From contig OX597821.1 of assembly GCA_951406725.2 (NCBI GenBank), forward strand, positions 33,480,001 through 33,544,000: 64,000 nucleotides of DNA. The letters are read 5' to 3'. Of this stretch, positions 12,991-55,800 are shown piece by piece (position 1 is the stretch's first letter; the number at the start of each line of letters is the position of its first letter). The DNA is from Octopus vulgaris (lineage: Eukaryota). The notes under the pieces were generated by a model. That model searched no databases. It was not told the DNA's origin and saw only the letters and a program-made list of their open reading frames with translations. A program made the translations under genes and the position numbers.

Positions 12991-12999
12991 TCCAGCCAT

Positions 13000-19057: not shown

Positions 19058-19107
<50 letters not shown>

Positions 19108-19111
<4 letters not shown>

Positions 19112-20005
19112 AAAAAATGAAGTTTGAAAATGCTGCTATATTAGACAAATTTTAATTTAACATGTTTCGGTTCTTGAAATGACGAACCTTATCAAAAAAA
19201 ATTTTTTTATATATAATAAAGAGAGTCCATGCTATATGTTTAAAGAGTATGATGTAATAGTTCATAATTGTGACATATATTCAATAGAGTCAAATATAAA
19301 AAATTCATATATAATATTCAATAGAGTCAAATATAAAAAAATTCATATATAATATTCAATAGTCAAATATAAAAAATTCATATATAATAAAGAGAGTCCA
19401 TGCTATATGTTTAAAGAGTATGATGTAATAGTTCATAATTGCACTGTTCACTTGCATCATATAGTTCCAAACCAATCAAAACCCAGTCTCAACGAATATA
19501 GTGAAAAGACTCCTAACTGTATCCTGTTAGGAAACCAACCAAGCCACGGAAGAAACATGTCATCATTTTTTTGACGTATCGAAATTAGATCTGACCCATG
19601 ACTGTATCCTGTTAGGTGGCTAGTCCAGCAGAACGAGTAGTTTGACCACGGAAGAAAGACGTCATCAATGTTTTGACGAATCAGAATCGGGTCTGACCCA
19701 TAGCTGTATCGTGTGAGGAAACCGACCAAGCAGGGTGACAATAGCTTGACCACTGAGGTAACACGTCATCAATGTTTTGATGAATCAGGATTAGATCTGC
19801 TCGCAGAGAAAGAGATCTTTTTATAAATTTTTCCTTCCCTAAGACATATCACTGTCAGCGTGAGTGACTGTTTAAGGATCTGAGAAATTGTAATTCGCCC
19901 CACCTCCATTATTATAATTCTCTCACTGTGGCCGTAGCAACAGTGACCACGGTGGTTGTGGTAGAATTTCATTTTTCTTTTTCGGAGGACCAATGTTTTG
20001 TTTTA
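19108..20005 (-). repeat. Probable Penelope-like terminal region with internal tandem repeats
   Basis: Bounded by (TA)n; hammerhead-like remnant near 19160-19198; ~35-bp tandem units at 19277-19385; ~60-bp duplication 19210/19380; ~100-bp period repeats at 19560/19660/19765. Confidence 0.45.
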
Positions 20006-20335
20006 ATATATATATATATAGATAAGAAAGTTGGTTTGTGGAAGCACGTGGGTGAATATATAAAAAAGAGTAAAGAGTGAAAAAACTACAGAAGGCTTAA
20101 ATGTTAAAAAATATATATATTTGCGTCAATATGTCTGAAGAATATTAGAAAATTAAAAAAAAAAATTTTTTTCTCTTATAATGACATAATTTAAAAGAAA
20201 GACCGGTTTCGCGTGTAGCTTTTCAAATTTCTTGCGACGTTATGATTGATTGATTGATTGATTGATTCCAGTTCCAGCCTATGAGCTGTGGCCATGCTGG
20301 GGCACCGCCATTTGGTGTTGCTACTTGGTTTCACT

Positions 20336-23297
20336 TCATGGAGGCTTTCTAGCAACTGCTATTTGGTGCATGAGAGAGTTCGATGCAGCTGCCCTCATCT
20401 GCCCCTCCTGCCGTGAAGTTGGTTCATCTGGGACACCTGACAGGAAGAGATCCAGCTTCATTTTAAAGACATCTGTATCCACCCCATGCAGGTCTCTCAG
20501 GTTCTTCGGGAGGATATTGAAGAGCTGTGGGCCTCGGAAGCCCAGGCTATCACAGAATCTTGTCCTACATCTTGATGGCAGGTTTGGAGTCCTAGGCACC
20601 ACGCAGTGGCGCCCAGTTCTGGCATTTGTGTAACTCTCGATGCCAAAGTTCAGGACACTTCCCTCCAGGATCTTCCAGATGTATATTATGGCATATCTTT
20701 CCCGCCTACGCTCCAGGGAGTATAATTTTAATCTCTTGAGTCTTTCCCAGTAGCTTACATTCTGCATAGAGGCTATCTTCTTTGTGTAGCTTCGTTGGAT
20801 CGCCTCAAGTTCTGTGATCAACTTGACACTGGATGGTGACCATAGCTGAGAGCAATAGTCAAAGTGGCTTAGGACAAGTGTCTTCCAGAGGACCATCATG
20901 GTTTCTTGTTCTCTTGTTCTAAAGGTTCTAAGAATCCAGCCAGCCAGCCGTCTACATTTCACTGTCAGTTTAGCAACATGTACATGAAAGGTCGCGTCAT
21001 CACTCATGTGAATACCCAGGTCACGCACTGATTGTGCCTCTGGGATTGCAATCCCTCCGGGTCCAGTGTATTCATTGGGTATTGCATTCAGTTTTGCATG
21101 CTGATAGTATAAAGCTTGAAACTTTCCAGCATTGAACTGCATGCTATTCTTTTCAGCCCACTTGTATATTTCGTCCAGCTCACATTGCAGGTTTTTAGTG
21201 TCCTCAGGGTTCTGTATTGCCTGTGAAACTTTTGTATCATCTGCATAACTTGTGATCGTGGATCTCTGCGTGGCTGAGGGCATGTCTGAGAGGGCCATTA
21301 TGAACAGTAGTGGTCCCAAAACAGTGCCCTGTGGAACACCACTCATTATTTGCGTGTTAATGGAAGTGGCCCCATTGGCTACTACCACCTGACTTCTATT
21401 CTTCAGAAAGTCGTGAAGCCATTCTCCTAGTTTTCCAACTATGCCAAGATCACGCAGCCTGTGACATATCATTCCGTGATCGACTTTATCGAAGGCCTTT
21501 GCGAAGTCGAGATATATGACTTCCACATTTGAGTGGTTGAGCAGTTGTTTCAGCACCCAGTCATAGTGCTGCAGGAGCTGAGTTAAGCAGCTTCTTCCTG
21601 GTCGGAAACCATGTTGGGTGTCAGGCAGCAAGTCATTTTCTTCAAGGAAGGTGATTAGTTTCCTTCTGACTATTCGTTCCATGACCTTGCTGATGTGTGA
21701 GGTCAGAGAGATAGGTCTGTAGTTCTTTGCCTCCGCTCTGCTACCTCCTTTATGAATAGGGCATATTTTACCTTCCTTCAGTCCCCTTGGAAGTTTGCCA
21801 GCTGCAAGGAAGCTCTGAAAGAGGGACTGCAGTGGTCTTGCTAAGACTCTCTTACATACTTTTAGGAGGATTGCCGGGAATCCATCGGGGCCAGTAGCTG
21901 AGTCTATTTTCATTTCATCTATAGCCTTTATTACATCGTCTTCCTTTATCTCGATGTAACTTATCGTCGCCGCCTCTGATTCTATATCTGCAGTGGTAAA
22001 GAAGTCAGTTGGATTGCTGATTTGGAAATGCCCAAGGGGTGGAGTGAAAACACTCTTGAATTGTTCATTCAGTATTTCACTTACCCTCATTGGTTTTCCT
22101 GTGAGTGTGCCATCCTTTTCAAGGAGTGGCCCTATCCTACAGTGCACTGTAGCCGTTTCTTTGGCATACCTGTAGAAAGCTCTGGGGTTAGTTTTTATGT
22201 TGTCTATAGCCCAGGCTTCTTTGTCTGCTCTTTCCTTCTCATGGGAAAGTTGCAGACAATTTTCAATTTCCAACAGTTTTATTTTCAGGCGGGACTTTTC
22301 ACTACTTTCAATTTGTTTGTTTAGGCGATTTGAAATTTTTGTACGCCGTCTCATTAAAATTTTCCTCTCTCTGGGGATTTTGTTCTTGTGTACAGTGGCC
22401 TTTCTCTCTGGGACACATTTGTAGCATATGGCTTGCATTACAGACATGAATTGTTGAAGTATCATGTCGATGTCCGGCGAGGAGAGACATTCAGGCCAGT
22501 TTTGTTTGAGGATCTCTTTCTCAATTTGTTTCCAGTTTGCCTTATTGAAGTTCAAGCTGGAAAGATTCTGAGGGTTTCTTGTAGGCTGCATGTCCGTGCT
22601 CTCTTTTGGCCCGTACATGGTCAGCTCTACCATGTTGTGATCCGAGAGTAGTGTCGGTGTCACTTTCACATTATGGATGAGATCCATATTATTTGTGAAG
22701 CAGAGATCCAGTGTGTTTACCTGCTCTGGTTGGTTGCAGTATTACTTGCTCCATGTACAGGGTGTTGGTGAGGTTCAGGAGGGACCTCGCCTGTCCACGT
22801 TCACATCTTGTCATTCCTGGGAGAGAAAGGCCCTCGGGCCATCTGACATTCGGTAGATTGAAGTCTCCCATGAGAAGTACACTTATGTGTTGTTCTAATG
22901 TGGTTAGAACTTCTTCTATTTTTAAAAGGCAGTCCTCGAACTTGCCCATATGACTTGGGGCATCTGGAGGGCGATATGTAGCACACACAACTACATCAAG
23001 TTGCCTTATGTGTACAATTAGTGTGTCACACACCGAGTTTGAGTATGACAAAAGGACCTGGGGTGTGAGGTCCCCACGGATGTACATAGCAACTCCTCCA
23101 TGACTCCTTTCTTTCCTGTCGGTCCGTAGTACAACATACTGTGGTATGTGTAATTCCGCATCTGCTATGTCCGGTTTCAGATGCGTTTCTGTGAGTGCTA
23201 TGCATAAGGCTTGATTGCATGCGACAAAGTCTCTCAGGAACGGGACTTTTGTCCTGTTACTGTGTGTTAGTAAACCTCTGATGTTCAGTAGGAGCAT
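20336..23297 (-). pseudogene. LINE ORF2 (AP endonuclease + reverse transcriptase) with one frameshift
   Basis: LNIRGL, LTETHL, MGDFNLP (APE); NYRPISLTS, QHGFR, YLDFAKAFDKV, GVPQGTVLGPLLF, YADD (RT); one extra base at ~22716-22718 breaks RAG-NTLDLCF. Confidence 0.93.
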
Positions 23298-24175
23298 CGA
23301 GGTGAGGTGTATGCTGTTGCCGGCGTTGTCCACCCTGGGTCCATCTGCTGTGGCGGTCTTGTGAACTGTGGGCAGTTCCATCTGCGAGCCTGAGCCTGAT
23401 GGAGCCAGGTTAGCTGCTGTACAATCTTTTGTGCCATGCACAAAAAAGATTCCTGCTCAGCAGCTGCCCTTTCAACAACACGTTGGTGGTTTGTGGTACG
23501 CACCACATCTGCGTACCTCCGTTTTGGGGCAGGTGATGCCTGGTCCATCCCATTTCCTTTCGGTGGTTGGTTTCTGTGGCAGGGTCCCGGATGTGCAAAG
23601 CGGCAGCCTGCACCTTCCTCTCCATGCCGGCAGGCACCTTTCAGGTAGAACCTACATACCCGTGTGCGCTGCTTGTTTCCATCCTTTTTGGCATATGGAC
23701 CGTTAGGTTTGCCTCTGTCCCTGGCTGCCTTGTCCCTTGGCTTTGTCTGAGTTTTAGCTTCAGTTTTTCCTCTTTTTTTGGCCTCTTCATCTCCATGTCC
23801 ACGGCTTTTGGAGCCGGTAGGAGCATCCGTACCTGGGTTCACCTCCCGGGCAGGCCTATCGTTGGAGTTTTCTTCCTGGGCGTCCACCAGGTGGGGGTGA
23901 CCCTCCTCATCTGCGCCCACGTCTCCATCCTTGCCATCTTTACTTTGTTCGCGTTTTTCGCTGTTAAAAATGGCATCCAGTGTGTTTATGTGCGATCTGA
24001 CAAGTGCGTATGAGCGTACGAACTCTTGCCTCTTCCGCTCTATTTGTGCTGATGTCCTTTTGAATCCTTTGTTCTTTAGTGCTGCCGCAATTATGTTACT
24101 TGGACTTTCTCCGTCAGCGCATTGCCATCCTCGCAGGAACCACACCAGTTCATCACGTTTCCAAGCTCTGGACAT
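23285..24175 (-). CDS. LINE ORF1: Myb/SANT-like N-terminus + CCCH zinc finger
   Basis: 296-aa open frame; WKRDELVWFL...GFKRTSAQIERK (trihelix-like, inferred); CRFYLKGACRHGEEGAGCRFAH. Confidence 0.75.
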   Translation of the reverse strand: MSRAWKRDELVWFLRGWQCADGESPSNIIAAALKNKGFKRTSAQIERKRQEFVRSYALVRSHINTLDAIFNSEKREQSKDGKDGDVGADEEGHPHLVDAQEENSNDRPAREVNPGTDAPTGSKSRGHGDEEAKKRGKTEAKTQTKPRDKAARDRGKPNGPYAKKDGNKQRTRVCRFYLKGACRHGEEGAGCRFAHPGPCHRNQPPKGNGMDQASPAPKRRYADVVRTTNHQRVVERAAAEQESFLCMAQKIVQQLTWLHQAQARRWNCPQFTRPPQQMDPGWTTPATAYTSPRCSY

Positions 24176-25200
24176 TCTTGATATATTATCTATCTATCTA
24201 ATTATGTTAAGTTATATTAATCCAAAGTAGGGGGGTAATAGAGAAAGAGAGCGTCTATGTACTTAAGGAGAGATTGGGAGCCAAGAGAAGAGAGCAGGAG
24301 AGAAGAGGAAGAGGAGAGATATTTTGTCTATCTATCTATCTATCTAGTTATATTAAGTTATATTAATCCAATAGTGCAATAGGGGGGTAGGGGGTAATAG
24401 AGAAAGAGAGCGTCCGTGCACTTAAGGAGAGATTGGGAGCCAAGAGAAGAGAGCAAGAGAGAAGAGGAAGAGGAGATACTGAGTGCTGAAGGAAGATAGA
24501 GAAAGCCTCTAGAGGAGAGCTGAGATAGACAGAGAAAGCGCAAAGGGAGAGAACCGAAGAGACAGACAGAGAGATCTAAACGAAGCTATTGGGCCAAGGA
24601 GGGGCGCAAGGGAGAGAACTGAAGAGACAGATAGAATTCTAAACGAAGCTATTGGGACATACATATGTATACACACACACACACACATGTACACACGTGT
24701 GCACATGCACATATATAGACAAGAGTAACAAGTGAGTATATAAAGAGACAATAATAATAATGAAACATATATAAGCATATATTACAAAACATATATAAAC
24801 ATATATTACAAAAGTAATAATAGTAAGAGATTATAAGACAATAATAATAATAAAAATGAAAAATAAAATAAAATAAAACAGCTGAAAGAAAAGAAAAGAA
24901 AGAAAGAAAAAACAGGCCAGGAGGTTTTACAGAGTTTATATATATATATGTAGTATATACATACACACATATATATATAACACACACACATATATTTAAC
25001 AAGTGATAATAATAATAGATAATAAAATAGTGTAATAATACATTTGTCCGCCGCAACAGACAAATTCTTCTATAACAAAACTATAACTAATTGCGACTAT
25101 ACCTTTAATAATAATTAAAACAGCTGAAAGAAAACACGCCAAGAAATGGCAATATATATTTATTTCGCTATAGACAATGTCTCTTAAGATAAACTACAAT

Positions 25201-25663
25201 ACGATTCTACTACTAACACACACACACACATGCACGTATATATAGATATATACGCACATACATATATAAACAGAGTAACAGGTAATTTATAGATAATAGA
25301 TTTAACGAAATTAACAGTAACAAGAATTTGTGATACGTTTTTGCGAGGATATAAACGATTCTACTACTAACACACACACACACATGCACGTATATATAGA
25401 TATATACGCACATACATATATAAACAGAGTAACAGGTAATTTATAGATAATAGATTTAACGAAATTAACAGTAACAAGAATTTGTGATACGTTTTTGCAA
25501 GGATATAAACGATTCTACTACTAACACACACACACACATGCACGTATATATAGATATATACGCACATACATATATAAACAGAGTAACAGGTAATTTATAG
25601 ATAATAGATTTAACGAAATTAACAGTAACAAGAATTTGTGATACGTTTTTGCGAGGATATAAA
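25201..25663. repeat. 3 x 154-bp near-identical tandem repeat in the LINE 5' UTR
   Basis: Unit starts ACGATTCTACTACTAACACAC at 25201, 25355, 25509. Confidence 0.95.
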
Positions 25664-25930
25664 CAGGAATTTGGGTACTTATCGACTGGAAATAAAATTA
25701 GGAGATTCCACGTGCGTATCGCTAGAAAGAGATCTTTGTGTCAAAACTTGACTTGTGGCAGAAATATATTGCGATTTTTAAGCAAATATCCAGGTACGCG
25801 TCTATAAAGTAACAATTTCCACGTTTTGTGAGTGATTTGCCAAGTTATTTCGTCGATTTTATGCAGCCCTTCTTGTTTTTTTTTATCGCAGAGAGAGACA
25901 ACACGTGTTTACTCTACGAAAGCCGGAAGT

Positions 25931-28030
25931 AATATATGTTATGTTTATGTTGAATAGAGTTTTCGTTATGTTTAAGTTCAGGAGAGTTCTAAATAAGGGA
26001 AGGTAGTGAGTGATTTCTTCCGGTGTAAGGGAGATAATCGCTTAAAAATTTTTTTCCTTTCCCTTGGTGTGAATTTCTCTGTATCAGTATGTTCGGATGG
26101 TTGAGTCTGGGCTTGTACTTTTCAATGAAGAATGTTTCCTTGTTTAGTCTAATTTGTGTTGATGATCCGAAAGCACATTGGTAAAATGGAAAGATTAAAA
26201 ATTGTGGTAGTAGTTGCTTTGCGCATTTCTCAATGTGCTCACTAAAAGGTATCATTCTATATTCTGGGAATGCAATTTGTTGTCAATGCAGTGTGCATCT
26301 ACATCTGAGTGATAGTCCCGTGGAACCCACGTAGTCTTGGTGGCAGCCCGAGCATTTTATGACATAAATTATGTTTTCAGAGGCACAAGTAAAGTTAGAT
26401 TTGATCTTGAATTTCTGTCCCTCTTTAAAGAGGAATTCTGATCCTTCTAGCAGGTTAGGGCATGTTGCACAGTTCGATCTACCACATTTGTTTTACTTTT
26501 GCATCCGTAATTTCAGAAGACAATTTTGCCTTTGTGAGAATCTTTTTAAGTGATTTAGGCTGTTTGTAGCTTTTAATGATTTGGTGTATGTTTAGAATTT
26601 CCTTTAATTTGGGGTCTTTATGAAGTATTGGTAAATTCTGGGTGATGATGGTGAAGGCTTCTTTGTTTCTGGGGTTGTATGTAGATATGTGAGGTAGTAT
26701 TTTCGGGGAAGGTGTGTTGTTGTTTTTCCTTATTACTAGGTTCCAGCCTGTGTCCTGGTGTCACTGGTCCCTGGCTAAAAAATGTTGGGTGTAATTTTGT
26801 TTGTATGAGTTGTCTGTGAGGTTGTGTGATATTGGGTCGGGGGAGTGGTGGTATTGTTGCCCCCGATCGTTGTGTGTGTGTGGGAATCTATGGTTGTTTT
26901 TGTTTGTGGTGTGTGTAAAATTTCTGTATGAGAAATATTTTTGTTTCGAACTGCTTGTATGTGGGATGTTGCTTGACATAGTGTTTTTTTGCGTTTGTCT
27001 TGTGTTTAGTGGGGACCAGTAATTTTGGTTCATGGGGTAGTAGTGACTTGTGTGTGGTGTATTTCTTATTCTAGTGTCGTTTTGTGCTGTATGGTGGTTG
27101 GGTCTGGTATTAGGATGTTGTTGGTGTGTTCTGTTTTTGGTGTAATTTATTTCATAGACGCGTCGTCTGTCAGCTAGTTCCCTGTTAGGTCTTGTGTGGT
27201 TTGCAAAGGTTGGTTGTGGGTGATTTCTGTTTTTAGTGTATGGAGGATAGTTGGGGGTTGTTCGTGGGTTGTTTGGTTTTTCTTTTTTATTTTTTGTAAT
27301 TTTCTTAAGGAAGGGATTATTTGTACCCAATTCATTTTTGGAAGAAGTCCATGTTTTTCTCCCAGCGCAGGAGAGAATTTCTCTCTTCTTTTTCACAGGT
27401 ATCCTTCCAATGATCTAATGTATTTTCGAGGGGTTGTCCCTCGGTATGTTTCTGTATTATATTGTGCATCTCCTCGTCTATGCTTTTAAATTTTTCTTCA
27501 TTTGTGGAGGCCCTTAGTCTTAGAAGCTCTATTTCTGATCTTAAATTGAACAGAGCTGACTTTTCCCTAATAGTTCTCTGTCCGTCAGGCTCAATTTTAT
27601 CTGGAATTTGCGTGGGAGGATAATTGGTGTTGAGTTCATCCATCCCTCGTAAATATCTGCTTTGTTGGAATTTTTTATCATGTTCCAGAAGGCGAGTTTT
27701 CTGTTGTGCAGGTTTGTATTCCAAATGTTTCCTATTTTTCTTTTTGCTGGGTTAATTTGGGTGTGTATGATGTCCTGCTGTGTTTCATTTGGTGCGTGTT
27801 TATTATTTTCGGATTTGTTGATGAAAATTGAATTTAGTATTGTATATAACAGTTGCAAATCCTTACTAACCTGGTCAGTGTAGCGAGTTGTATCTTCATT
27901 GCTTTTACTTTCCCGGGCGAGTAGGTTTGATTCCTTGATTTTGTTGTTCAGGTTAATAAGCTGTGTATTAATATTTTTCAGTTCTTTGAGTATGTTCTCA
28001 TTTGTGGTTTTATCCGAGGTGTTGGTCTTC
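25931..28030 (-). mobile_element. Penelope-like element, RT core deleted (GIY-YIG end retained)
   Basis: LPHISTYNP thumb-like motif, FTCASENIIYVIKC and RLNKETFFIEKYKPRLN endonuclease motifs; no RT motifs between the N-terminal ORFs and the thumb; probable terminal part lies left of the LINE (20020-20243). Confidence 0.75.
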
Positions 28031-28046
28031 TATATATATATATATA

Positions 28047-30690
28047 GCGGTAATGGATCCTTCAACACAGCCCGACCCAAACACTAGAAATAGCAGCTGC
28101 TTCTCCCTTACCTTAACAACATGCTGACCTGTCTTACTCGCTCGGTGACCTCGATCGAAACGGCAGAATCCTGCCCTGCCTGCGTACACGTCACTCCTGC
28201 CCCTTCCGGTCAGCTCCTCAGCTGCTGACGTCATCCCACACGCCACCCTGATCTTGCGCGTCGAGATCTTCTCAAGCTCGGCACCTCGTTCTACCCCTCT
28301 CCACAATCGTCGTTCGACGAAGCGACAATCCTGCGAAGGTCCAAGACGTGTCGCGGCATTCTATCCACGGAGACGTTGTTTCTAGAATTGACCGCTGTCA
28401 CCGTTCCTCTGTTCCATTGAGACATACAGCGCGCCTTTGGTGGCTTAACCCAGACTTCCTCCCCTATTTTCACGTAAGCAGGTTCCTTCTCTTCTTCGTG
28501 GCCCTCCAGCGCTTTACTCGGGTGCCTGCATTCATATTTAAATACAGCTCTCTGCGGCACAGATTCTTCAGCTTGTCCGGATTGGGGAGACAAGTTGTAC
28601 CAACTAACTGCTTCGAGTGGCGAAATGTGCCCTCTTTCCGCTGTGGCCTTGACTGTCCGATGATGCCTCTCTATGATCCCGTTACCGCTGGGCCTATACG
28701 CTGCTCTGAACAAGTGACACACCTTCCACCGGTTAAGCATATCCCTCAATGCGCCGCCCCGTTGTCCATTAGCAGTTCTTCCACGGGACCTCTCTCTAAA
28801 AATATGCCGTTCAAGATCTGCGCAATCTCGTCAGCAATGCCTGTTCTCAACTCCCTCCACATGGCCAGCCGGCCCGGCCCGCAGTTGACCATGGAGAGAT
28901 ACATTCCCTGGTGGTAGTGCGTCACATCCACAGCTAGCCTTTTCCAGTTGTGCTCCACCGAAAGGTTTCCTTGCTCATGCCCACACGGAAAAAGGTCAAT
29001 GGACTGACACCTGTCGCAGCTCCCGACCACTTTCCGGATGCTTCTCCTTGTGATGTCAGCATCAATTTTCTTCGCCAGATACAGGGTCCTGTCCACACCC
29101 AAGTGATGCATACCATGCAGTCTCTTCAGTTCAGAGTCATCCAACTGACACGCCACAGCTATCCCTTTCCGGGCCTCCTCCAGTTTCTCCAACCACACCC
29201 ATTTCACCCTGGTCAGTGCATCCGCCCTGTTTTTCTCCGAAGGCACGAAAACCACATTCAGCTTCAGTCCAAACTCGGCGATCAATTCTCCTAGACGGTG
29301 CTTCACCAACATCTCCGCAGCACCTTTCATCCAAACTCTCCTTACACCGGTGATCACTCCGCCCGCTACCTCCTCCTCCCAAGAGACAAGAACCCCTTCC
29401 TCGATTCACCTCTCCACCTCGTCTTCAAACTCGACCCTGGCGTGGCCTTTCAGGGTATGCTGGTAGCAGCTCACTCTGTTTTTCAGCATCGGGGGCTCGT
29501 CCTTCCATCGCCACTCTATCGTCCACCGCTGACCATCAAATGCCGCCTGAAAATCTTTGTCCTCGATGGTGTAAGTGGCGCAGTCCCTCACGGGGCTCTG
29601 CTCTCTCTGGCGATCCTGACTCACAGTGCACATGCCCCCACGCTTCCGAATGTGACCTCATCTCCCACAATACTGACGCCACCGAGGCAGTTGATGGTGT
29701 CCATCACCACATCAACCCCATCTATCACGCGTTCAGCCACAATTACCTGCAGCCTTAGCGTTGCGCCTCCCACCACTATCTCTACCTTGCTGCTGCTTTT
29801 GCAATGGATTTCGCTGCCGTCGACAGCTCAGACGCTACTTGCCCCATTCCATTTCTTTGTCACTCTTGAAGTCACACGGGTGGTCTTGCAGCCCGTATCC
29901 ACGAGGGCCTTGAACATCTTCCCCTTGGCCTCGACATCAATTAATGGCAGCATCTCCAAAAGCGCCTCTACTCGTTTGCGGGGCAAGTTCGAGAGGCAGC
30001 AACTTCCCTGCGGTCGTTTCCCTGGTCGCAATCACGTGCGATGTGCCCTGTCTGCCTGCATTGATAGCAAACGGGCCCCGGTTGCGTACACTCCCTCACC
30101 ATGTGCAACCCCTGACATCTAAAACACTGACCTGAGAACGGCTGCTGTCGTTGCACGGTAGACTTCTGCACGTCTTTCTCCAGCCGTCAGCTGTCTTTAC
30201 ACAGCTCCGTCACCGCCATCGCTATCGCCTTCCACCCAGAGTGTGGCATCAACACGTGGGCTTGAGTCACAAGTTCGCTCAGTGCCATCTTTTTACTCCC
30301 AGGCAATTGTTGTAGGTGAATCCCTACGTCATCGGGGAACCCATTTACGAATGCCAGTTGCGCTGCTCACTCCAGCCCTTCTCCGTAAACCCAGCCAGCG
30401 TCGCTAACCTTTGAACTTCTGCCACGTAGTCGTCCACCTGTCCTCCCGTCCATTGAATCGTACCCAGCTTAGGAAAAGCTGTATACTCACACTCGGTGTA
30501 AGCATCCCTCAGACGTTGCTCTATCTTTTCCTCGCTCAGACGTTCTTCCTCCTCCATCTCAAGATATAGTGTCAACACGCTCCCTTCCAAATACAGCGCC
30601 ATAAGACTTGCCACATCGCTTATACCTTGCAGTCTTGCCACCAGCCTGATTTTATGAATCCAGGCCACTACATCGCCTTCACCATTAAAG
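28047..30690 (-). mobile_element. Gypsy family G1 remnant: gag-PR-(RT deleted)-RH-IN-PPT-3'LTR
   Basis: Twin CCHC knuckles, ALVDTGC protease, NRADALTR, H-H-C-C and DNG..GNGIIER integrase motifs; PPT AAGATCAGGGTGGCG before LTR start TGTGGGATGACGTCAGC. Confidence 0.9.
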
Positions 30691-43672: not shown

Positions 43673-43734
43673 ATTTAATAATAATATTTTTTTAGCAAAG
43701 TAAATAATTTTTTAAACTTAAATAATAATTTTTT

Positions 43735-44471: not shown

Positions 44472-44489
44472 CCGTCTAATGCCTCAAGG

Positions 44490-45139: not shown

Positions 45140-46782
45140 AAGAAAAATTGGTCAAGCTGTTTTGGCACAAAACAAAGACATACCGATACACAAACACATA
45201 TTTTCAGTTTTAATATGTAAGACTAACTTAAGGTAACCTGCTCTACGCACGGGTGAGGGTGTGGTTGTTTCTTTTGCTTACTTTCTGTTTCTTATCACCA
45301 CATTCTCCCTCTGTGTTTCTCTCTCCTTTCTCACTTTGCCACTCTCTTACACTTTATCTTTCTCTATCTATCTCTCTCCCATTTATAAAATAGAAAAGAT
45401 CTTGAGTAAGTTGAGAAAGAACATGTTTTGAAAGATCAATCATAAATATCAGGCAGTGACAACGGAAAGCACACTAACCTTTTGTACTTGCTACTATTTG
45501 AATGATTAAAAATAAGGAAAAAAAGGATTTCTTTGTTAAATTTAGTACTTATTTTGGAAATTTTTCAACGATTAACCATGCAAATGAAAGCTCTAAACAC
45601 AGGCTACATGCAGCTGTAAATTTCTTTCAGAGAAAATGAAAGCTGTAAACAATAAAAAATAAAAGGCAAAAATACGTAAAAATGAGAAATTTATTTCAAC
45701 TTCAAAAATCTTGCCTTAATTTTCAAAATTTTGAACCCATTTTCTGCACTTAAATTACAAATCCGCTTCCACTTTACCATGTTGAAAATTTGATTGAAAT
45801 CGGGCAAAAGGTGTCCAATCTAGACCCCAGGTGTCTTCAAAAATCAATAAAATCCCCATTTTCACACCAAAGCAACCACTATAGCGCCGCAAAAGTGTCC
45901 TAATCAATTTCTCACCTCAAGTTACCCCCTCCTGTAAATCTTAATCCCCATTTAGACCCCGTTTTACATAAAGATCCAATTTGTATCAACGTTCGCCTTC
46001 TTCATTTTATGGATAGGATTAGATGCCAATTGCACTAATCTCGAGGGGCTTAGAGTTCCCTTGAATCTTCTCACCATAGCAACCGCATCTTTCCAGATGG
46101 TGGGTTTTGATCTACTCAGCTCTCTGCCTCATTACGCCTTCTATTCATGTGTCAATTTTCAGCTCGATCTGACCACTGGTCTGCCCGCCAACCTCTGACG
46201 TAGCAAAATGTGCACACAATTTTACGCACAATTTTAACCCGAAGCCTCTTTTATATATATAGATAGCAGAGAAACCCGGTCTTGCTTGGGATTAAAATAG
46301 TTTATCATTGTTTTATTTGTTTCGGTATTATAACTCGATTTCATTTGGGTCTACGTGGGCCACACTTTAAAGATGAGGAATTTTGCCCTAGAGGTCACAC
46401 CTTTCAATTGAGCAAACTCAATTGGTGTGCAAATTTTCAGCTGAATCCGACCATATTTACTAACACTTTTGCCTGTATAACTGCTTGTGAGACAACGTCT
46501 GCCCTTTTCACAAATATGTAGTAGACCTACAGAGATACCCAGCCTTGCTTGGGATTAAAATGGCATAGTTTTTTATTGTCTTACTTGTTTGGTTAATATA
46601 ACCCAATTTCATTCGAGTCTAATTGGGCCACATTTTAAAAGATGAGGAATTTTGTCCTAGAGGTCATGCCTTTCATTTGAGAGAAAAATAGTTGCCATGC
46701 AAACTCGCCAGCACTTTTAACATAGGTGTGCATATTTTCAGCTCAACCGACCACATAATGCAGAGATAATATATATATATAC

Positions 46783-46790
<8 letters not shown>
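45140..46790 (+). mobile_element. Tandem non-autonomous Helentron-associated (HINE/DINE-like) elements
   Basis: Repeated heads ACCC.G.CTTGCTTGGG at ~46275 and ~46540; 46263-46520 and 46527-46780 are homologous tandem units; ends resemble TATATAGAT. Confidence 0.5.
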
Positions 46791-46822
<32 letters not shown>

Positions 46823-46824
<2 letters not shown>

Positions 46825-48777
46825 CGGAAGGTTTACGAAAATAAACAAAAGACAAAGGCAGGTGGACTACAAACAAATAATGTATTAGTATGCCGCTCAG
46901 GAATAGAAATAAAACAAGTCTTTTATGTTTCGAGCCTACGCTCTTCGACAGAAAGATACACAGAAAAGAAACAAGGAGAGAAAAAAAATTGCGTGTAGGG
47001 GCTAACGATCCAACATGGCGTTCTGATTTCAGAAGTCAGAGATCGGAGGTCAGACGTTATATGCTAGAGGGATAGTAGGGGAGATAACAGGGTCAAGTGA
47101 CCTCGCTCCAACCTGAAGGTGCATGTGTGCATAAGAGAGTATGTATGTGCATGTGGAAGAGGGCTGGTGGTTTGGACATGTGTATGATGTGATGTGTAAT
47201 GTCGTATGGTGTAGTGTAGTGTGGTGTGGGGAGGAGGGGAGTGAGGGAGCAGAGAGAAAGAAAGAGGGAGGAAGGGGGAGAAGAAGGGAGGAGGGAAAGA
47301 GAGTAGGGTGAAAAGATGAAGGACTGAAGAGAAGTAGGAGTCTGGGTGGGTTAGATGTAAAGGGGGGGAGGGATGAAAATGGCGTAAAAGAGCGAAGAGA
47401 GAAGATTAATCCCTGTTCACGGCGCAAACGGGAATCCGAATGGCCTCTGCAAGGACAATCCGAACACAGACAGGTGTTCCAAGGAGTGACTGGTGGAGCA
47501 GAAATGGCATGAGACGGAGGTATTCCGCGAACTGGTCAGCCAAGCGGTGTCCCGTTTGTCCGATGTACAGAGAATGGCAGAGAGAGCAGGAGATGCAATA
47601 GATGATATTGCTGGAGGTGCAGGTGAAGGAGTCGAGGGTGCGATAGGGTCGGTGATGGGTGCCAGTGAGGAGGGTGGCGTTGGAGAGGTAAGGGCAAGTG
47701 CGGCAACGTGGGCGGGAGCAGGGGAACAAGCCAGGTTGGGAGGTAGGGTCAGGGAAGAAGCTGTGGACCAAGAGGTCTCGTAGGTTATGGGTTCATTTGA
47801 AAGAGGGGAGGGGTCGGTTAGGGAAGAGGTGTAAAGTGGACGGGTCAGACTGGAGATGCCGGAAAGCTCTAAGAATGATGCGTTGGAGAGGTAAGGTCGT
47901 GGGGTGGTAAGTGAGGGGAAAAGGGAGGCAGGAGACTACAGGGCGGGTTCGGGGGGAGAGAGCAGATGCACGGTCTACGGAACGTGCTCTGGCAAGGGCA
48001 GTGTGGATAGTGGTGAGGGGATATCCACGTAGGGTGAAGTGGCGAGCCATGAGTTGAGACTGAGTCTCAAAGTCATGGTCATCACTACAGAACCGACGTA
48101 GACGGAGGAATAGGGGATGGAAAGCTTAGTGTGTTTGGGGTGGGAGGAAGAGAAGTTTAGGTATGAGTGTGAGTCTGTGTGTTTGTAGTGAATGGAGGTG
48201 GTAAGAGTGGAGGATGAATGCTGACCGAAATGTCGAGGAAGGAGACAGAGGTGTAGGAGATAGTGGAGGGCAGGATGGAAGGATTGAACGAAAGAGAGGA
48301 AGGAATCTAGATGTTCACGGGAGAGTGAGGTGGCACCGATAATGTCGTCAATGTAACGACCGTATAGTTCGGGAGTGGGACCAGTGAAACTAGAGAATAT
48401 TTGGGCCTCAACATAGCCAACAAACAGGTTCGCATAGTTGGGGCCCATTCGTGTTCCCATGGCCACTCCCGTGAACATGTTGGTAGAACTCGCCTGCGAA
48501 CGAGAAGCAGTTCAGAGAAAGGACAAGTTTGTCCAGACGAATGAGTGTGGAGGTGTCGGGTTCAGGGTTGACGCAGAGGTCGAGAAAGTGTTGAAGGGCC
48601 TGCAGTCCTTCGTGGTGAGGCATGACGGTATAGAGGCTCTGGATGTCCATTGTAAAAAGTATTTTGGAGGAGCCGGGAGGAAAGGAGAAAGAGTTGAAAA
48701 GCCGGAGAGCATGGTTGGTGTCGTGGATGTGGGAGGGAAGAGACGCCACTAGGGGGGCAAAGACACGGTCAAGGTAT
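46823..48777 (-). mobile_element. Neptune-like Penelope element with 3' terminus, cassette copy 5
   Basis: RT motifs; CSRPRCRTC; SNIIYCISCSLCHSLYIGQTGHRLADQFAE GIY-YIG; terminus abuts (TA)n. Confidence 0.9.
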
Positions 48778-49096
48778 GTTTAACCCTGGTCAATTGTCAT
48801 TGCTTCAGCTCAACATTTTGTGGCTGAAAGATGTAGTCGGTGGGCCAAATCCAAAAAGGGCCTTATTTATTGAGTTGGTTGCACCCCCTTCCCTGCAACT
48901 TTAGTTTGATGGTACCACATTGTTCCTGGGTCTACGGGGATGACATTTTCACTTGTCATTAGGGCGGAGGTCGAGAAAGTGTTGAAGTGCCCACAGTCCT
49001 TTGTGGTGAGGGATGACGGTATAGAGAATCTGGATGTCCATAGTAAAAAGTATTTTGGAGGAGCCGGGAGGAAAGGAGAAAGAGTTGAAAAGATGG

Positions 49097-49950
49097 TTGC
49101 AGGGTCGTGGGTCCAGAATGGTGGAATTTTCAAGGAAATCGGCGCTTGGAATGCCATGTCAATCGGAGGTATTAAGTTGGCCGCTGGATTGTATTTGTTG
49201 GAGTTCTTAAATGTTTTATTGTAGGGTGATGTGCAAGCTGTAATTCTTCAACGCGGTTGATGAAGCTGGTTCCGGGGAAGGCCGCAATTCGTTTGACGGG
49301 GTCACTAAATGTAGAGGATATGTGTGTATGTAAACAAATACATAAACCGTTTCATGATTAAAAAGAATTTATTTACAGGGTTATAAGTACACTACATACA
49401 AATGTAAGCAAATGCTACGAATTGCTTGTATAGAGCACATATTAAAAATGAATATGTTTGTGTGTGTGTGTGTGTTTCATTCGAAACAGTAGTCGATAGA
49501 CACTGTGAGCATTTCTCTCTGTCTGTCGTCTGCCAAAAACTTGGGGCGAGATAGATCTGTCTGCTGCCGTCTCTCCGCTGCAATTGTCCTTTTCTCTGTT
49601 TTCCCCCTTGTATTTATAATATTTGATTTCTTTGGGTTTGTATGTGGGTGATGCAGTCATGTGTTGATGTATGCATTTCATTTAGGAAGATGGATAAGTT
49701 AAGAGTTTGGAACTTAGGCAAAAAAAACTTGCACAAACCTTGCTGGCCATCGAACTGTTCTTCCCGATTTGGTGTGTCGGGGTTGTGCAGAATGTGTGGT
49801 GTTTGCTGGAGTTGTTGAGTCTGTTCGAGGAAAGGAGGGAACTGAATGTAAGTCAGGAGGGCAGACGCTGGAGAAAAAGCTGCTTGAAAATTTTTTCCGG
49901 GAGGCTCTCATCTCCAAGAAGGTGGGACGGCGTTTTGTCACCCAACTCTT
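49097..49950 (-). mobile_element. Rearranged CsRN1-like Gypsy LTR/PBS/gag fragments
   Basis: ISLKIPPFWTHDPA gag start; PBS TAGTGACCCCG; duplicate of 53405-54495. Confidence 0.8.
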
Positions 49951-52458
49951 CTAGCATCACACCAGACGGTCCCGCATTTCGTCTTGGGCATGTACCAGTT
50001 CCCCCTGACCGGGTCTTCCGCTCTTGTCCTCTCTAGGATCTCCTGCATCATCGCCACCGTCCCTTCTCCCACCTTTTTCGCCCCACCTCTCTCCTTCTGC
50101 TCGTCTCTTGGTGTAACTACACGCCATGCGCAGCCATCCAGCGATCGGGTAGTGACTGACCAACTTCCCACACACCGAGAACAGCTCTCTCCTGCTGACG
50201 CTGGAACTCAGCTCTGGGATTTCATTTCCTCTCCGGAACACCAATTCACCTGATCTATCTCTTCGCAGCTTCAGCCCCAGCGCAGCTCCCCTTCAATCGA
50301 CTCCGGTGGCTTAGCAATCAGTCCGAACTTCTCCAGATGTCTCACTACCTCGTCGGCTGGCACTACAGTTTCGTCCACCAAAATGTCATCAATGTAGGAG
50401 CTGGTGGCCTTTCTAATCTTGCCGTCTTTCCCTAGGACGGACCTAAGCACTTCCGCCATGATCTTCGGAGCGGAATTCAGCCCGAAACCCAGCCTGGTTA
50501 GACAGTACGTCCGGCCCTTGTACCGCACCAGCTGATATCGCCATAGTTTGTCGCTCACATGGAGCTGCAAGTATGCCGATCTCAAGTCGACAATCGTCGC
50601 TGCCTCAGTCGACTGTCTCCACTTACGTAATGCCTCACCACAAACGTCTGTCGCCTCACCTCCCGTGTGACACGATATGTGCTGGTTTAGCTCCCTGAAG
50701 TCCAGCACCGGTCTGACTTTTCCCTTCGTAGGCTGCACCACCGCCATCAAGGGTAGCACTCCGCCCGCTACCTCCTCCTTCCAAGGGACAAGGACCCCTT
50801 CCTCGATCCACCTCTCCACCTCGTCTTCAAACTCAACCCTGGCGTGGCCTTTCAGGGTATGCTGGTAACTGCTCACCCTGTTCTCCAGTGTCGAGGGCTC
50901 GTCCTTCCATTTCCACTCTATCATCCACCGCTGACCATCGAATGCCGCCTGAAAGTCTTTGTCCTCGATGGTGTAAGCGGTGCAGTCCCTCGCGGGGCTC
51001 TGCTCCCTCTGGCGATCCTGACTCGCAGTGCACGACGCCCCACGCTTCCGAACGTGACCTCATTTCCCACAACACTGACGCCACCGAGGCAGTTGATGGC
51101 GTCCATCCCCATCACCACATCAACTCCATTTATCACGCGTTCGGCCACAATTGCCTGTAGCCTTAGCATCGCGCCGCGCACCACTATCTCTACCTTGCTG
51201 CTGCCTCTGCAACGGATTTCGCTGCCGTCGACCGCCCAGACACTACACACCCCGTTCAATTCCTTCGTCACCCTCAAAGTCACCAGGTTGGTCGTACAGC
51301 CTGTATCCACAAGGGCCTTGAACGTCTCCCCCTCGGCCTCCACGTCAATCAATGGCAGCGTCTCCAATAGCGCCTCTGCTCCTTTGAGGGGAAAGTTCGA
51401 GAGGCAGCAACTTCCCCGCGGTCGTTTCCCTGGCCGCAATCACGGGCAATGTGCCCTGTCTGCCTGCATCGATAGCAAACGGGCCCCGGCTGCGTACAGT
51501 CCCGCACCATGTGCGGTCCCTGGCATCTAAAACACTGTCCTGAGAACGGCTGCTCTCGTTGCACAGTGGGCTTCTGTACCTCTTTCTCGGGACGTCGTCC
51601 GTCTTTACGCGCCTCCGTCACCGCCATCGCTATCGCCTTCCGCCCAGAGTGTCTCGTCAACCCGCGAGCATGAGTTACAAGTTCGCTCAATGGCATCTTT
51701 TTGACCCCGGGCAGTCGTTGTAGGTGAATCCCTACATCATCAGGGAACCCATTCACGAACGCCAGTCGGGCTGCTCTCTCCAGTCCTTCTCTGGCAAACC
51801 CGGCCAGAGTCGCTAGCCTTCTAGCTTCCGATGCAAAATCATTCACCTGGCCTCCCGTCCACCTGATTGCACCTAGCGAAAGCTGTGTACTCGCATTCCG
51901 TGTATGCGTCACACAAGCGCCGCTCTATATTCTCATCGCAGAGCCGTTCTTCTTCATCCATCTCTAGGTAAAGCGACAACGCACTCCCTTCCAAATACAG
52001 CGCCATAAGACTCGCCACGTCACTTATGCCCTGCAGTCTCGCCACCAGCCTGATTTTCTGAATCCAGGCCACTACATCGCCTTCGCCGTTAAAGTCTGAC
52101 GACGTCACTGGCGATCCTAATTTTTGCAGACATCGTGTTGAAAAAAAATGTGAATGTTTACGAACTGCCGAAATAGCTTGTAGTGAGTGTATGCGATTTG
52201 AATATAGAGGCACCTACCTTCTCTTCGTGGTGACGGAGATCCTCCAGAGATGGCTGGTCCTTCCTCACAGCCCTACCCGAACACTAACAATAGCAGCTGC
52301 TAGCCCCAAACCCTTTAGCGACTTCCTCGCACGTCTTGTCGCCAGCACGACCCACGTTGGAAAGGTCAACTTCCACCCCCTGCGCACGCTTGACGGCTGA
52401 CCCCTTCCGCTTGCCCCAGCTTCTGGTCAACGCACCCCGCTGCTGACGTCATCCCACA
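49951..52458 (-). mobile_element. Gypsy G1 5' part: LTR (52179-52458), PBS, gag, protease, RT
   Basis: Twin CCHC, ALVDTGC, VRPVLDFRELN, DLRSAYLQL, RLGFGLNSAP, YIDD; frameshifted between domains. Confidence 0.92.
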
Positions 52459-53404
52459 GAGCACATATTAAAAATGAATATGTTTGTGTGTTTCATTCGA
52501 AACAGTAGTCGATAGACACTGTGAGCATTTCTCTCTGTCTGTCGTCTGCCAAAAACTTGGGGCGAGATAGATCTGTCTGCTGCCGTGTCTCCGCTGCGAT
52601 TGTCCTTTTCTCTGTTTTCCCCCTTGTATTTATAATATTTGTGACAGCTAGAAAAACAGACATATCGCAACAGAAACAGTGCTTATTTAGGTCATCACTT
52701 GTCCAGTTGAACTTAGCCTGACATGGCTGAGGTCGCAGGTCAAAGGGAGATGATCAATCACTTTTTGACAGAACAAAGGGATTCTTACTTTCGCGCCTTT
52801 GATTGCATTGTCTTGAGCGACCAAGGGTTCTTGGATTCGATTTCAAATCTAGGCTTAGAGAAGGAAGTGCTAATTCTTACACTACCCCCTTCTAGTGAGG
52901 AAGCCACAGAGATCGAACGATATTGGAATGTTATTTTTTTGTGCGTATGCAGAAAAAATTTACACATTGTAACAGACAAATGAACAATAAAAATATGAAG
53001 CAAAGGTTTACTGTTTGTGTGTGCTATATGGTGGGCAATACGTATATGTACCCAGGCAGAAATATGTTGGCGTGTTGAAAGAGATGTGCGTCTATTGATT
53101 ACTCGACCCACTAGATGTCTAATAGTGGCAAGGTGTCTTTCAGTGGCGAAAAAGATCGAGTGGTAGCACACAGGAGAATATGACTTGTAAATGTGTGTGA
53201 ACATACAAAAAATATATTTACAAGAAGGCAAAACATTTTAAAGAGAAAACAAAACATATGTACTTGCAAAAAAATGAAAGAAATGTTCATCGAAAAAGTT
53301 CGTTTGTGAAATGTTCCGTAAATGTTCATACAGACAGTTTTTCGTTGATGTGGAACAACGTTTTTGTTTTCATTTTTTTTTCTTTATGTACACGAATTGT
53401 CTTT

Positions 53405-54495
53405 GATTTCTTTGTTGGGTTTGTATGTGGGTGATGCAGTTATGTGAGTTATGTGTTGATGTATGCATTTCATTTAGGAAGATGAATAAGTTAAGAGTTC
53501 GGAACTTACCCAAAAAACTTGCACAAACCTTGCTGGCCATCGAACTGTTCTTCCTGATTTGGTGTGTCGGGGTTGTGCAGAATCTGTGCTGTTTGCTGGA
53601 GTTGTTGAGTCTGTTCGAGGAAAGGAGGGAACTGAATGTAAGTCAGGAGGGCAGACGCTGGAGAAAAAGCTGCTTGAAAATTTTTTCCGGTAGGCTCTCA
53701 TCTCCAAGAAGGTGGGACAGCGTTTTGTCACCCAACTCTTCCAATATCAGAAGCTGGTGAAGTCGTTTCTGTTGAGATTCGGAGGTTCTATCTATCAGAG
53801 TGGTTTTAAAAGTGTCATACGACACAGAACCCGGTGGTGCCATGATAAGATCGCCGAAGACGTTTGTGATTTCCAGCGACAGAGAACTGATAACATGCAA
53901 AAGTTGAGACGCATCGCTCAGTATTCGGTTAGAGGAAAACTCTGCCTCTATATGGTAAAACCATAATGCAGGGTCGTGGGTCAAGAATGGTGGAATTTTC
54001 AAGGAAATCGGCGCTTGGAATGCCATGTCAATCGGAGGTATTAAGTTGGCTGCTGGATTGGATTCGTTTGATTTCTTAAATGTTTTATTGTAGGGTGATG
54101 TGCAAGCTGTAATTATTCAACGCGGTTGATGAAGCTGGTCCGGGGAAGGCCGCAATTCGTTTGACGGGGTCACTAAATGTAGTGGATATGTGTGTATGTA
54201 AACAAATACATAAACCGTTTCATGATTAAAAAGAATTTATTTACAGGGTTATAAGTACACTACATACAAATGTAAGCAAATGCTACGAATTGCTTGTATA
54301 GAGCACATTAAAAATGAATATGTTTGTGTGTGTGTGTGTGTTTCATTCGAAACAGTAGTCGATAGACACTGTGAGCATTTCTCTCTGTCTGTCGTCTGCC
54401 AAAAACTTGGGGCCAGATAGATCTGTCTGCTGCCATGTCTCCGCTGCGATTGTCCCTTCTCTGTTTTCCCCCTTGTATTTGTAATATTTGTGACA
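53405..54495 (-). mobile_element. CsRN1-like Gypsy 5' LTR (54178-54495), tRNA-Trp-type PBS and gag
   Basis: LTR TGTCAC...CTACA; PBS TAGTGACCCCG (near TGGTGACCCCG); KIPPF..DPALWFYHIEAEF..LFLQRLP gag. Confidence 0.85.
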
Positions 54496-54728
54496 GCTAG
54501 AAAAACAGACATATCATCGCAACAGAAACAGTGCTTATTTAGGTCATCACTTGTCCAGTTGAACTTAGCCTGCCATGGCTGAGGTCGCAGGTCAAAGGGA
54601 GATGATCAATCACTTTTTGACAGAACAAAGGGATTCTTACTTTGGCGCCTTTGATTGCATTGTTTTGAGCGACTGAGGGTTCTTGGATTCGATTTCAAAT
54701 CTAGGCTTAGAGAAGGAAGTGCTAATTC
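54496..54728. repeat. Duplicated LTR-flanking segment
   Basis: Near-identical to 52647-52876, i.e. a segmental duplication including the LTR edge. Confidence 0.85.
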
Positions 54729-55605
54729 ATAATATTTGTTCTCATGATTGTGTGGTGTTCGTGACGATAATAAAAGTCTCTATGAATGCAGACAGACATA
54801 CAGAGAGAGGGAGGTGGTGGGAGAAAGAGTGACAGAGGTGGCGGGGGAAAGATAGTGGAAGCTGTCAAATGTCGTTATAGAGAGAGAGAGAGAGACGATG
54901 AAGACAGGAACAAGCAGAATTATAATATGATATATATCGTCACAAAATGTTAGGATTGAATACACATTGATATTAAAGAATTATACTGAAAATAAAAAAA
55001 GTTTCTTCAAAATTTTAACACCCAAAATGCAAGAAACAGAATCAAATTATCATTGTAAATGACTATCTAGTATCTTTTAGATACTTTCAACAGTAGCTGA
55101 ATAATTTGGTACAGAAACTTTGAATGCTACTTTCTTTTTTACAATTTTATTTTCGTAGTCCATTGCAGTCTAGTCTGGATTTAACATTCTCTATCTTAGT
55201 CGTCCATGTTCATTCTTATCTTTGTTGATCCTAACTTAGAGAGTGAGATGTGTTCTATTGTTTGCCATGATGTATCCTACAAAAGATTTTACATGTAAAA
55301 GAATACATTCATAAAAGTTTCCCTTGATTTAGTTCTTTTGGATTGAAACACTTCATTTAACAATCTTCAAATGTAAACTTCATAGGTTGTTTGTGCACAT
55401 TGTCTTTCAATTTGAAAGATGATGCAATACGTGCAGCAGAAACCATTCGCCTTGGCCAAGGTGATGCAATTCACGGCTCATGCAAAATGATTGCAGATTA
55501 CACTTATTACAGTTGGCTCTGATGCAGTCCACTATATTTGCATGATCTTGTCATTATTAATTCTGAATGTAATTTATAGTGTACAGCTAATTCTTAATTT
55601 GAATA

Positions 55606-55800
55606 TTCAATTCAATTCAATTCAATTTTTATTGGCTCAAAAACCAAAAGCAAGGCCATGTAGGGGGACAGGGAGTTATGTACAGGGAGGGTGGTCATAC
55701 AAAGAGTTCATGCCATTTCTGGTCGAGAGAGACTTTGAACCCAGCGGTCGTCGGCATCTTCACTATCTCGTCCAGCAGCTTATTCCACGGATCTGCAATA
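55606..55800 (-). mobile_element. CR1-type LINE 3' fragment with (TTGAA)n tail
   Basis: PWNKLLDEIV....FKVSLD C-terminal motif, then a tandem pentamer tail. Confidence 0.7.

What the first reader, a model, noticed from the sequence alone, without database searches (positions are those of the whole stretch)
19108..55800. Candidate uni-strand (flamenco-like) piRNA cluster: ~36 kb of diverse TE fragments in one orientation
Seen: every coding TE piece here is on the minus strand: CR1-type LINE, two Penelope families, Gypsy G1 (several divergent copies), CsRN1-like Gypsy, L1-like ORF1, Helentron, Helitron, Merlin and a second CR1. With about 10-11 independent lineages, a coin-flip null gives roughly 1 in 500-1000. 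SINEs are abundant in both flanks, but I see none inside. A + strand gene sits immediately upstream. Established: uni-strand piRNA clusters such as Drosophila flamenco are long transcripts of antisense TE fragments. Inference: a + strand transcript here would be an antisense catalogue against many TE classes, i.e. a cephalopod piRNA master locus.
Basis: partly seen in the sequence, partly recalled or inferred. Interest (0 to 1): 0.85.

Follow-up and report, generated by a model that had tools for sequence, protein, structure and literature searches.

The report
Octopus one-way transposon array, piRNA candidate
In an octopus genome, 37 kb just behind an ordinary gene is packed with pieces of eleven transposon families that all point the same way and lacks the short repeats common elsewhere; it appears to be transcribed and likely serves as a one-strand source of transposon-silencing piRNAs, which is untested.

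Summary
In 19,101-55,800 every orientable transposon piece is on the minus strand: 343 protein matches minus, 0 plus, from 11 families and at least 13 separate captures. In 35 random 40-kb windows the strands are balanced, 52 plus and 46 minus. The SINE-free gap is 37.1 kb; the longest in those windows was 20.8 kb. Three Gypsy copies are each closer to dispersed relatives (92, 95, 98%) than to one another, so co-oriented capture was repeated over time. About 26% of the array is local duplication. Contigs of three RNA-like runs from three studies bridge a joint found only here, but they show no strand and RNA is the tool's guess. No small-RNA data could be reached. A second co-oriented, SINE-poor array lies at G000:C6:75.37-75.44 Mb (17 minus, 2 plus), so 'master locus' is not supported. 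Best reading: a uni-strand piRNA precursor locus (0.6), possibly read through from the upstream gene. Earlier scan notes describe such layouts in two other genomes.

The parts
4611..4818 (+). Coding exon 1 of a conserved uncharacterised C2H2-finger gene
   Evidence: ATG and GT donor read from the sequence; 69+1+104 codons give the 174 aa of P0001
16264..16580 (+). Last coding exon with stop codon; candidate host gene for read-through
   Evidence: 99% identical to Octopus sinensis LOC118764541; homologues from molluscs to Trichoplax, 46 proteins
16990..18020 (+). piggyBac remnant in sense orientation between gene and array (ends approximate, read from sequence)
   Evidence: DDE_Tnp_1_7 E 1.2e-9 on 17299-17721
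19101..20009 (-). 3' end of a third Penelope family; left edge of the array
   Evidence: 98-99% and 89-90% to L213/L214, whose GIY-YIG (both) and RT (L213) matches lie on the strand equal to window minus
20243..24190 (-). Near full-length LINE (ORF1 with CCCH finger, endonuclease, RT); CR1 clade label is recalled, no tree built
   Evidence: RVT_1 E 2.5e-30, Exo_endo_phos_2 E 2.2e-6; 95% to copies in random window R21
25992..28030 (-). Penelope A pieces (GIY-YIG end and N-terminal part, RT missing)
   Evidence: GIY-YIG motif read by eye, no Pfam hit; protein and DNA relatives in random windows
28046..30691 (-). Gypsy G1 copy 1 (LTR, integrase, protease, part of gag; RT deleted)
   Evidence: best dispersed relative 92%; 85% to copy 4, 89% to copy 3
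30692..41880 (-). Locally duplicated chimeric block, four copies at 95-97%: Penelope B RT, terminal repeat of a CXC-domain DNA element (not orientable), L1-like ORF1, Helentron-like PIF1 piece, G1 integrase/LTR pieces
   Evidence: self-comparison; joined form only at the 4 in-window copies among 40 scored candidates; relatives L025, L026, L182
43172..43713 (-). Merlin/IS1595-type transposase fragment
   Evidence: relative L179 has DDE_Tnp_IS1595 E 1.8e-20 in the same orientation; Atlas 0.94
43734..44470 (-). Gypsy G1 copy 3 (gag and 5' LTR)
   Evidence: best dispersed relative 95%; 78-89% to in-locus copies
44475..45225 (-). Helitron-type PIF1 fragment
   Evidence: PIF1 E 1.1e-6; dispersed relatives, joint with the G1 LTR seen only here among 40 scored
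46821..49092 (-). Penelope B, older duplicate with its 3' end
   Evidence: 90% to 30692-32421; 3' part matches R25 beside its Penelope hit
49948..52460 (-). Gypsy G1 copy 4 (5' LTR, gag, protease, RT), young
   Evidence: 39 dispersed relatives at 95-98% among 40 scored; Pfam hits
52458..54731 (-).
   Evidence: DUF7041 E 1.4e-21; relatives up to 93%
55628..55800 (-). 3' end of a second CR1-type LINE; right edge of the array
   Evidence: C-terminal RT motif read by eye; relatives 84-92%
19064..56158 (.). Gap free of high-copy SINE-like elements, 37,094 bp

Best explanation
The 37-kb array is a transposon archive in which every orientable piece lies on the minus strand, and it likely works as a uni-strand piRNA cluster: a predicted plus-strand long RNA would be antisense to all of them and would be cut into piRNAs that silence the related elements elsewhere. 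Shown: co-orientation of 11 families, repeated separate captures, growth by local direct duplication, absence of SINEs, and close targets elsewhere in the genome. Likely: transcription. Inferred: the plus strand, piRNA processing, selection for antisense insertions, and the promoter, most simply read-through from the upstream C2H2 gene.
For: Orientation: 343 minus and 0 plus matches, against 52 plus, 46 minus and 73 same-strand to 83 opposite-strand pairs in 35 random windows. Eleven families on one strand give 1 in 1,024 by coin flip; 13 captures give 1 in 4,096. G1 copies 1, 3 and 4 are 92, 95 and 98% to dispersed copies but 78-89% to each other. Live-looking targets exist: 39 G1 relatives at 95-98% and LINE copies at 95%. 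The SINE gap (37.1 kb against at most 20.8 kb), GC (0.449 against 0.323-0.389) and T-over-A skew (0.066 against -0.056 to 0.053) all lie outside the 35 controls. RNA-guess runs X1, X3 and X7, from three studies, cover 30, 29 and 25 of 30 bins of 37,880-46,760. All three bridge the joint near 40,060; X3 also bridges 40,487; X1 also bridges 41,880, 44,473 and 45,225. Their whole contig sets are only 61-118 Mb, and single-copy parts stand roughly 8-58 times higher relative to a high-copy repeat than in the DNA-sized run X18 (table 2, a rough measure). Octopus bimaculoides has Piwi and about 5,700 small-RNA loci (PMC12479628).
Against: No piRNA and no transcript strand were seen. No run is on record as RNA, and no silent control stretch could be laid. 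LTRs at about 52.2-52.5 kb and 54.2-54.7 kb could drive minus-strand (sense) RNA that would give the same contigs. 26% of the array is duplication, so pieces overstate events. The genome holds about 70,000 such windows and the share with 11 or more orientable families is only bounded (0 of 35), so a genome-wide chance level is not fixed. A sense piggyBac remnant lies between gene and array. 22 AATAAA sit on the plus strand inside the array against 25 on minus, so one continuous read-through would have to pass them. The SINE gap may partly reflect youth: only 39 of 315 SINE copies had a best match of 95% or more. The protein library was seeded from this locus, which inflates its coverage here.
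Confidence: 0.6

Rival explanations
1. A transposon nest or insertion hotspot that grew by nested insertion and tandem duplication, with co-orientation from chance or insertion mechanics and RNA from the elements' own LTR promoters (minus strand, sense to the elements). No host defence role.
For: 9,479 bp are local duplicates and all long internal repeats are direct. A young 5' LTR is present, 98.5% to the LTR of an intact copy. Contigs show no strand.
Against: The bias spans LINE, Penelope, LTR, Helitron and DDE classes, which insert by unrelated mechanisms (established knowledge). Of 5 windows chosen around relatives of the same families, 4 had ordinary SINE counts and no such array. Three G1 captures at different ages all agree in strand.
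Confidence: 0.2
2. The array lies in a long plus-strand transcript (read-through tail, lncRNA or intron), and sense insertions were purged because their poly(A) and splice signals disturb it; no piRNAs are made.
For: A plus-strand gene ends 2.5 kb upstream, and only ATTAAA, no AATAAA, lies on plus between its stop and 19,214. Transcription is likely. Antisense bias of transposons inside transcription units is established knowledge (recalled).
Against: AATAAA is not depleted on plus (22 against 25). This does not explain why coding transposon pieces are so dense here (up to 7 pieces in random windows) while SINEs, which are the class most often embedded in octopus lncRNAs (PMC9115989 passage), are missing.
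Confidence: 0.15
3. One composite mobile unit, or a chain of reverse-transcriptase template switches, copied many sense RNAs in one event, so the pieces are not independent.
For: Short truncated pieces abut directly, without matching element halves on both sides.
Against: The joined forms occur only at this locus among the 40 scored candidates of each search. Pieces differ in age, 80-99% to their nearest relatives. LTRs and terminal repeats of DNA elements are included.
Confidence: 0.05

Closest known systems
Drosophila flamenco and flam-like uni-strand clusters (PMC10643416, PMC10495008; passages read)
   Same: Dense transposon remnants in one orientation, young Gypsy content, local duplications. 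Such loci were first picked from strand bias alone, and both candidate species with small-RNA data made one-strand piRNAs.
   Different: There the bias is driven only by Gypsy, 79% antisense in D. melanogaster, and the flam-syntenic clusters quoted are 227-1,085 kb. Here it covers all orientable classes in 37 kb. piRNAs are not shown here.
[quoted passage not shown]
   Same: Densely packed antisense transposon fragments directly behind an intact host gene on the opposite strand.
   Different: Described in mouse, human and hamster with read-through RNA and piRNAs shown. Here read-through is untested, and a sense piggyBac remnant lies in between.
Molluscan piRNA clusters of Lymnaea, Crassostrea and six other species (PMC6128900, PMC11067994; passages read)
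   Same: Enriched for young Gypsy and DNA transposons, with a make-up unlike the genome average; Penelope, Gypsy, Helitron and L1 in scallop clusters.
   Different: Defined from small RNA; 2.7-17 kb in PMC11067994. The passages read give no one-strand layout per cluster, and PMC11067994 has no octopus or cephalopod mention.
Aedes aegypti unidirectional flamenco-like cluster (PMC7161354; search listing only)
   Same: A one-direction cluster outside Drosophila, by its title.
   Different: It holds non-retroviral viral elements; none was recognised here.

Membership tests
Uni-strand piRNA cluster | High density of transposon remnants in one orientation | tested here: met
   343 minus, 0 plus; about 86% of the array assigned to transposon pieces by hand-set intervals; balanced controls
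Uni-strand piRNA cluster | Transcribed as long RNA | tested here: inconclusive
   Contigs of three RNA-guess runs bridge locus-specific joints, the longest 1,005 nt; none spans the stretch; RNA is not on record
Uni-strand piRNA cluster | Transcript runs antisense to the elements (plus strand) | not testable with these tools
   Only contigs were served; no canonical splice joint and no editing skew over the DNA run
Uni-strand piRNA cluster | Produces 1U, phased, Piwi-bound 24-32-nt RNAs from one strand | not testable with these tools
   No small-RNA reads reachable; the supplement search of PMC12479628 showed only protein rows for this species (2 of 5 hits seen)
Uni-strand piRNA cluster | Sequence close enough to dispersed young elements to target them | tested here: met
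   G1 95-98%, LINE 95%, third Penelope end 98-99%; older pieces match at only 80-89% over their length
flam-like cluster (van Lopik definition) | Strand bias confined to Gypsy elements; hundreds of kb | tested here: not met
   Bias covers LINE, Penelope, Helitron and Merlin types as well; 37 kb
piC-DoG | Intact host gene directly upstream, opposite to the elements | tested here: met
   Gene ends at 16,580 on plus; array starts at 19,101
piC-DoG | Read-through transcript joining host exons to the array | not tested

The most novel reading that the evidence does not exclude
Octopus genomes carry a family of one-strand, SINE-excluding piRNA clusters that archive every transposon class in antisense, and this one is fed by read-through from a conserved housekeeping-type gene: an invertebrate piC-DoG, found from sequence alone, with a sister array on C6.
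Probability: 0.3. Interest if true: 0.7.

Novelty: new member of a known kind. Interest (0 to 1): 0.47.

Why it matters
No cephalopod piRNA cluster was described at locus level in the papers my searches returned. Two concrete loci with unique joints make a direct test possible with existing octopus small-RNA libraries. If true, they show that one-strand antisense archives extend to molluscs, need not be Gypsy-specific, and can be found by strand bias plus SINE absence. If read-through holds, a cluster origin described in mammals would reach invertebrates.

Tried and rejected
Run search: no RNA holder listed on record; this blank is not used as evidence. The strand column of the contigs was not used, because contig orientation is arbitrary. 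A>G against T>C as an editing clue to strand gave no excess over the DNA run (X1 29/31, X3 26/35, X7 19/26, X18 41/45). No canonical splice joint was listed. Bins without cover in X3 and X7 are not read as silence. Contigs at 40,612-40,778 and 40,639-41,094 lie inside one Helentron-like piece and were dropped as junction evidence; X1 record 4 (95%) may come from a dispersed G1 copy and was dropped too. Assembly artefact was rejected: copies differ by 3-10% and DNA-run depth rises on the duplicated parts, about 300-370 against 29-52 (rough). Rfam gave 0 matches and ARAGORN 0 genes. Pfam alone did not name the Penelope A, L1-like, Merlin or most Helentron ORFs. The 32,290-32,682 piece is a terminal repeat and was left unoriented. 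One plus 'LTR' hit at C6 overlaps the plus Penelope copy and was dropped from that count. Searching papers for the gene's identifiers gave 0. Not tested: whether the array lies in an intron of a farther gene; element clades by tree; independence of the G1 piece at 37,960-38,620.
Full report
Setting. The window is G000:C8:33,480,001-33,544,000 of a 2.80-Gb assembly. The gene upstream of the finding is 99% identical over exon 2 to a protein of Octopus sinensis whose cluster also holds O. vulgaris and O. bimaculoides members, so the animal is an octopus of the vulgaris/sinensis group. The gene has two coding exons (4611-4818, 16,264-16,580, plus), read from the sequence, which add up to the 174 aa on record.

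Observation: strand. Pfam on 104 ORFs of the window put every transposon domain inside 19,108-55,800 on minus. A library of natural ORFs from the window, from six Tc1 loci, from random windows and from relatives gave 343 minus and 0 plus matches there, 91 of them from queries taken outside the locus. A wider library gave 26 merged pieces, all minus. The families are two CR1-type LINEs, three Penelope families, two Gypsy families, an L1-like ORF1, a Helentron-like and a Helitron-like helicase, and a Merlin-type transposase. Merlin and Helentron were confirmed through relatives. The third Penelope, at 19,101-20,009, is new to the list. The L1-like label is weak. Several non-coding pieces cannot be oriented.

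Observation: controls. Thirty-five 40-kb windows were drawn at random from 15 large contigs (35 of 40 drawn were fetched). They hold 46 plus and 42 minus pieces, or 52 and 46 with the wider library, with 73 same-strand and 83 opposite-strand pairs and at most 7 pieces in a window. High-copy short elements average 16 per 40 kb; the longest gap in the controls was 20,819 bp and in the 200 kb of flanks 12,174 bp, against 37,094 bp here. GC (0.449) and T-over-A skew (0.066) also lie outside all 35 controls. The library was seeded from the locus, so its coverage here is inflated, but the strand balance of the controls is not affected.

Independence. About 26% of the array (9,479 of 36,693 bp) is later copies of local direct duplications, so pieces must not be counted as events. 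A Penelope-terminal repeat-ORF1-Helentron block occurs four times at 95-97%, and its joined form was found nowhere else among 40 scored candidates. The Gypsy G1 copies, however, are separate captures: copies 1, 3 and 4 are 92, 95 and 98% like their best dispersed relatives but only 78-89% like each other. That gives 11 families and at least 13 events, or 1 in 1,024 to 1 in 4,096 by coin flip. With about 70,000 windows in the genome and only 0 of 35 as a bound on how many are this dense, the genome-wide chance level remains open.

Transcription. No listed run is on record as RNA. Three RNA-guess runs from three studies and one DNA-sized run were laid on 37,880-46,760 at 92% likeness (4 of 24 listed runs, chosen as the best holders of different studies). 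The RNA-guess runs cover 30, 29 and 25 of 30 bins. The joint near 40,060 is bridged in all three (X1 39,583-40,418, 3 differences; X3 39,607-40,610, 2 differences; X7 40,003-40,301, 2 differences). X3 also bridges 40,487, and X1 bridges 41,880, 44,473 and 45,225. These runs assemble to only 61-118 Mb in all. The ratio of a high-copy repeat bin to a single-copy bin is 345, 901 and 1,303 in them against 10,800-20,100 in the DNA-sized run, which argues against plain DNA carry-over; depth of contigs is a rough measure, and no silent stretch could be laid. Contigs give no strand, and editing skew and splice joints gave none either.

A sister locus. Two searches hit C6 37 kb apart on one strand. That region holds 17 minus and 2 plus coding pieces of Penelope, Gypsy, LINE, Helitron, hAT and Merlin types, with SINE gaps of 43 and 25 kb. 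Four other windows chosen around relatives of the same families showed ordinary SINE counts and no such array. So the layout is rare but not unique, which supports a class of loci and speaks against a single master locus.

Mechanism. Shown: one-way orientation, repeated capture, local duplication, SINE absence and close targets (39 G1 relatives at 95-98%; LINE copies at 95%). Likely: transcription. Inferred: a plus-strand precursor is cut into antisense piRNAs, insertions in antisense are kept, and duplications raise their dose. The promoter is most simply that of the upstream gene, since only ATTAAA lies between its stop and 19,214. Against this stand a sense piggyBac remnant in between, 22 AATAAA on plus inside the array, and LTRs that could drive sense RNA from the right. 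The SINE gap may reflect selection, since SINE-matching piRNAs would hit host RNAs (inference), or partly youth (39 of 315 SINE copies at 95% or more). I give the piRNA reading 0.6, a transposon nest 0.2, a plain long transcript 0.15 and a single composite unit 0.05.

Comparison. It works like flamenco in layout but fails that group's Gypsy-only bias and size (PMC10643416; PMC10495008). It matches the layout of mammalian piC-DoGs (PMC11615739), with read-through untested. Its mixed content fits molluscan clusters (PMC6128900; PMC11067994). Octopus has Piwi and piRNA-sized RNA (PMC12479628). For these papers and PMC9115989 I saw passages around search terms, not whole texts; PMC7161354 and PMC11400887 only as listings. 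Of the one supplement searched I saw 2 of 5 hits; unseen supplements or deposited data could hold octopus cluster coordinates. Searches returned no locus-level description of a cephalopod piRNA cluster; subscription journals are mostly not covered. Two earlier scan notes report similar layouts in other genomes without RNA data; I did not test them.

Verdict. The feature is real and beyond the controls. It is best filed as a candidate new member of a known kind, the uni-strand piRNA cluster, with membership unproven until small RNAs are mapped. Interest 0.47.

Noticed in passing
G000:C6:75,365,001-75,442,000 (L207, L208, L187-L191, L209): Second co-oriented array: 17 minus and 2 plus coding pieces (15 and 2 without the two that led me there), with several Penelope families, three Gypsy copies (two with LTR pairs at 99.3%), LINEs, a Helitron PIF1 and a hAT transposase; SINE gaps of 43 and 25 kb. 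More intact elements than the C8 array. Left edge and neighbouring genes not seen.
   Followed up: partly
window 4611-4818 and 16,264-16,580: Uncharacterised 174-aa protein with one C2H2 finger split by an 11.4-kb intron, conserved from Trichoplax and cnidarians to molluscs, annelids and ticks, with no Pfam family and no paper naming its identifiers.
   Followed up: partly
L025:335-1225 (G000:C4, about 101.93 Mb): DNA element with about 400-bp terminal inverted repeats some 4.3 kb apart and an ORF ending in a Tesmin/TSO1-like CXC domain; class not established.
   Followed up: partly
window 20,262-20,315: The LINE's 3' tail resembles, by eye, the end of an abundant flanking SINE-like element (for example near 59,040-59,100), suggesting a LINE/SINE partner pair.
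   Followed up: no
window 25,201-25,664 and 56,465-56,919: A 154-bp unit in three near-identical copies inside the array, and a CTCA-rich minisatellite just beyond its right edge.
   Followed up: no
window 59,447-60,504: Two copies of a 420-bp element in inverted orientation, 94% alike, about 230 bp apart.
   Followed up: no
window 7269-8330, 10,892-11,248, 11,728-12,217: In the gene's intron: a Penelope piece on plus, a piggyBac piece and a Merlin-like piece on minus, so orientation is mixed outside the array.
   Followed up: yes
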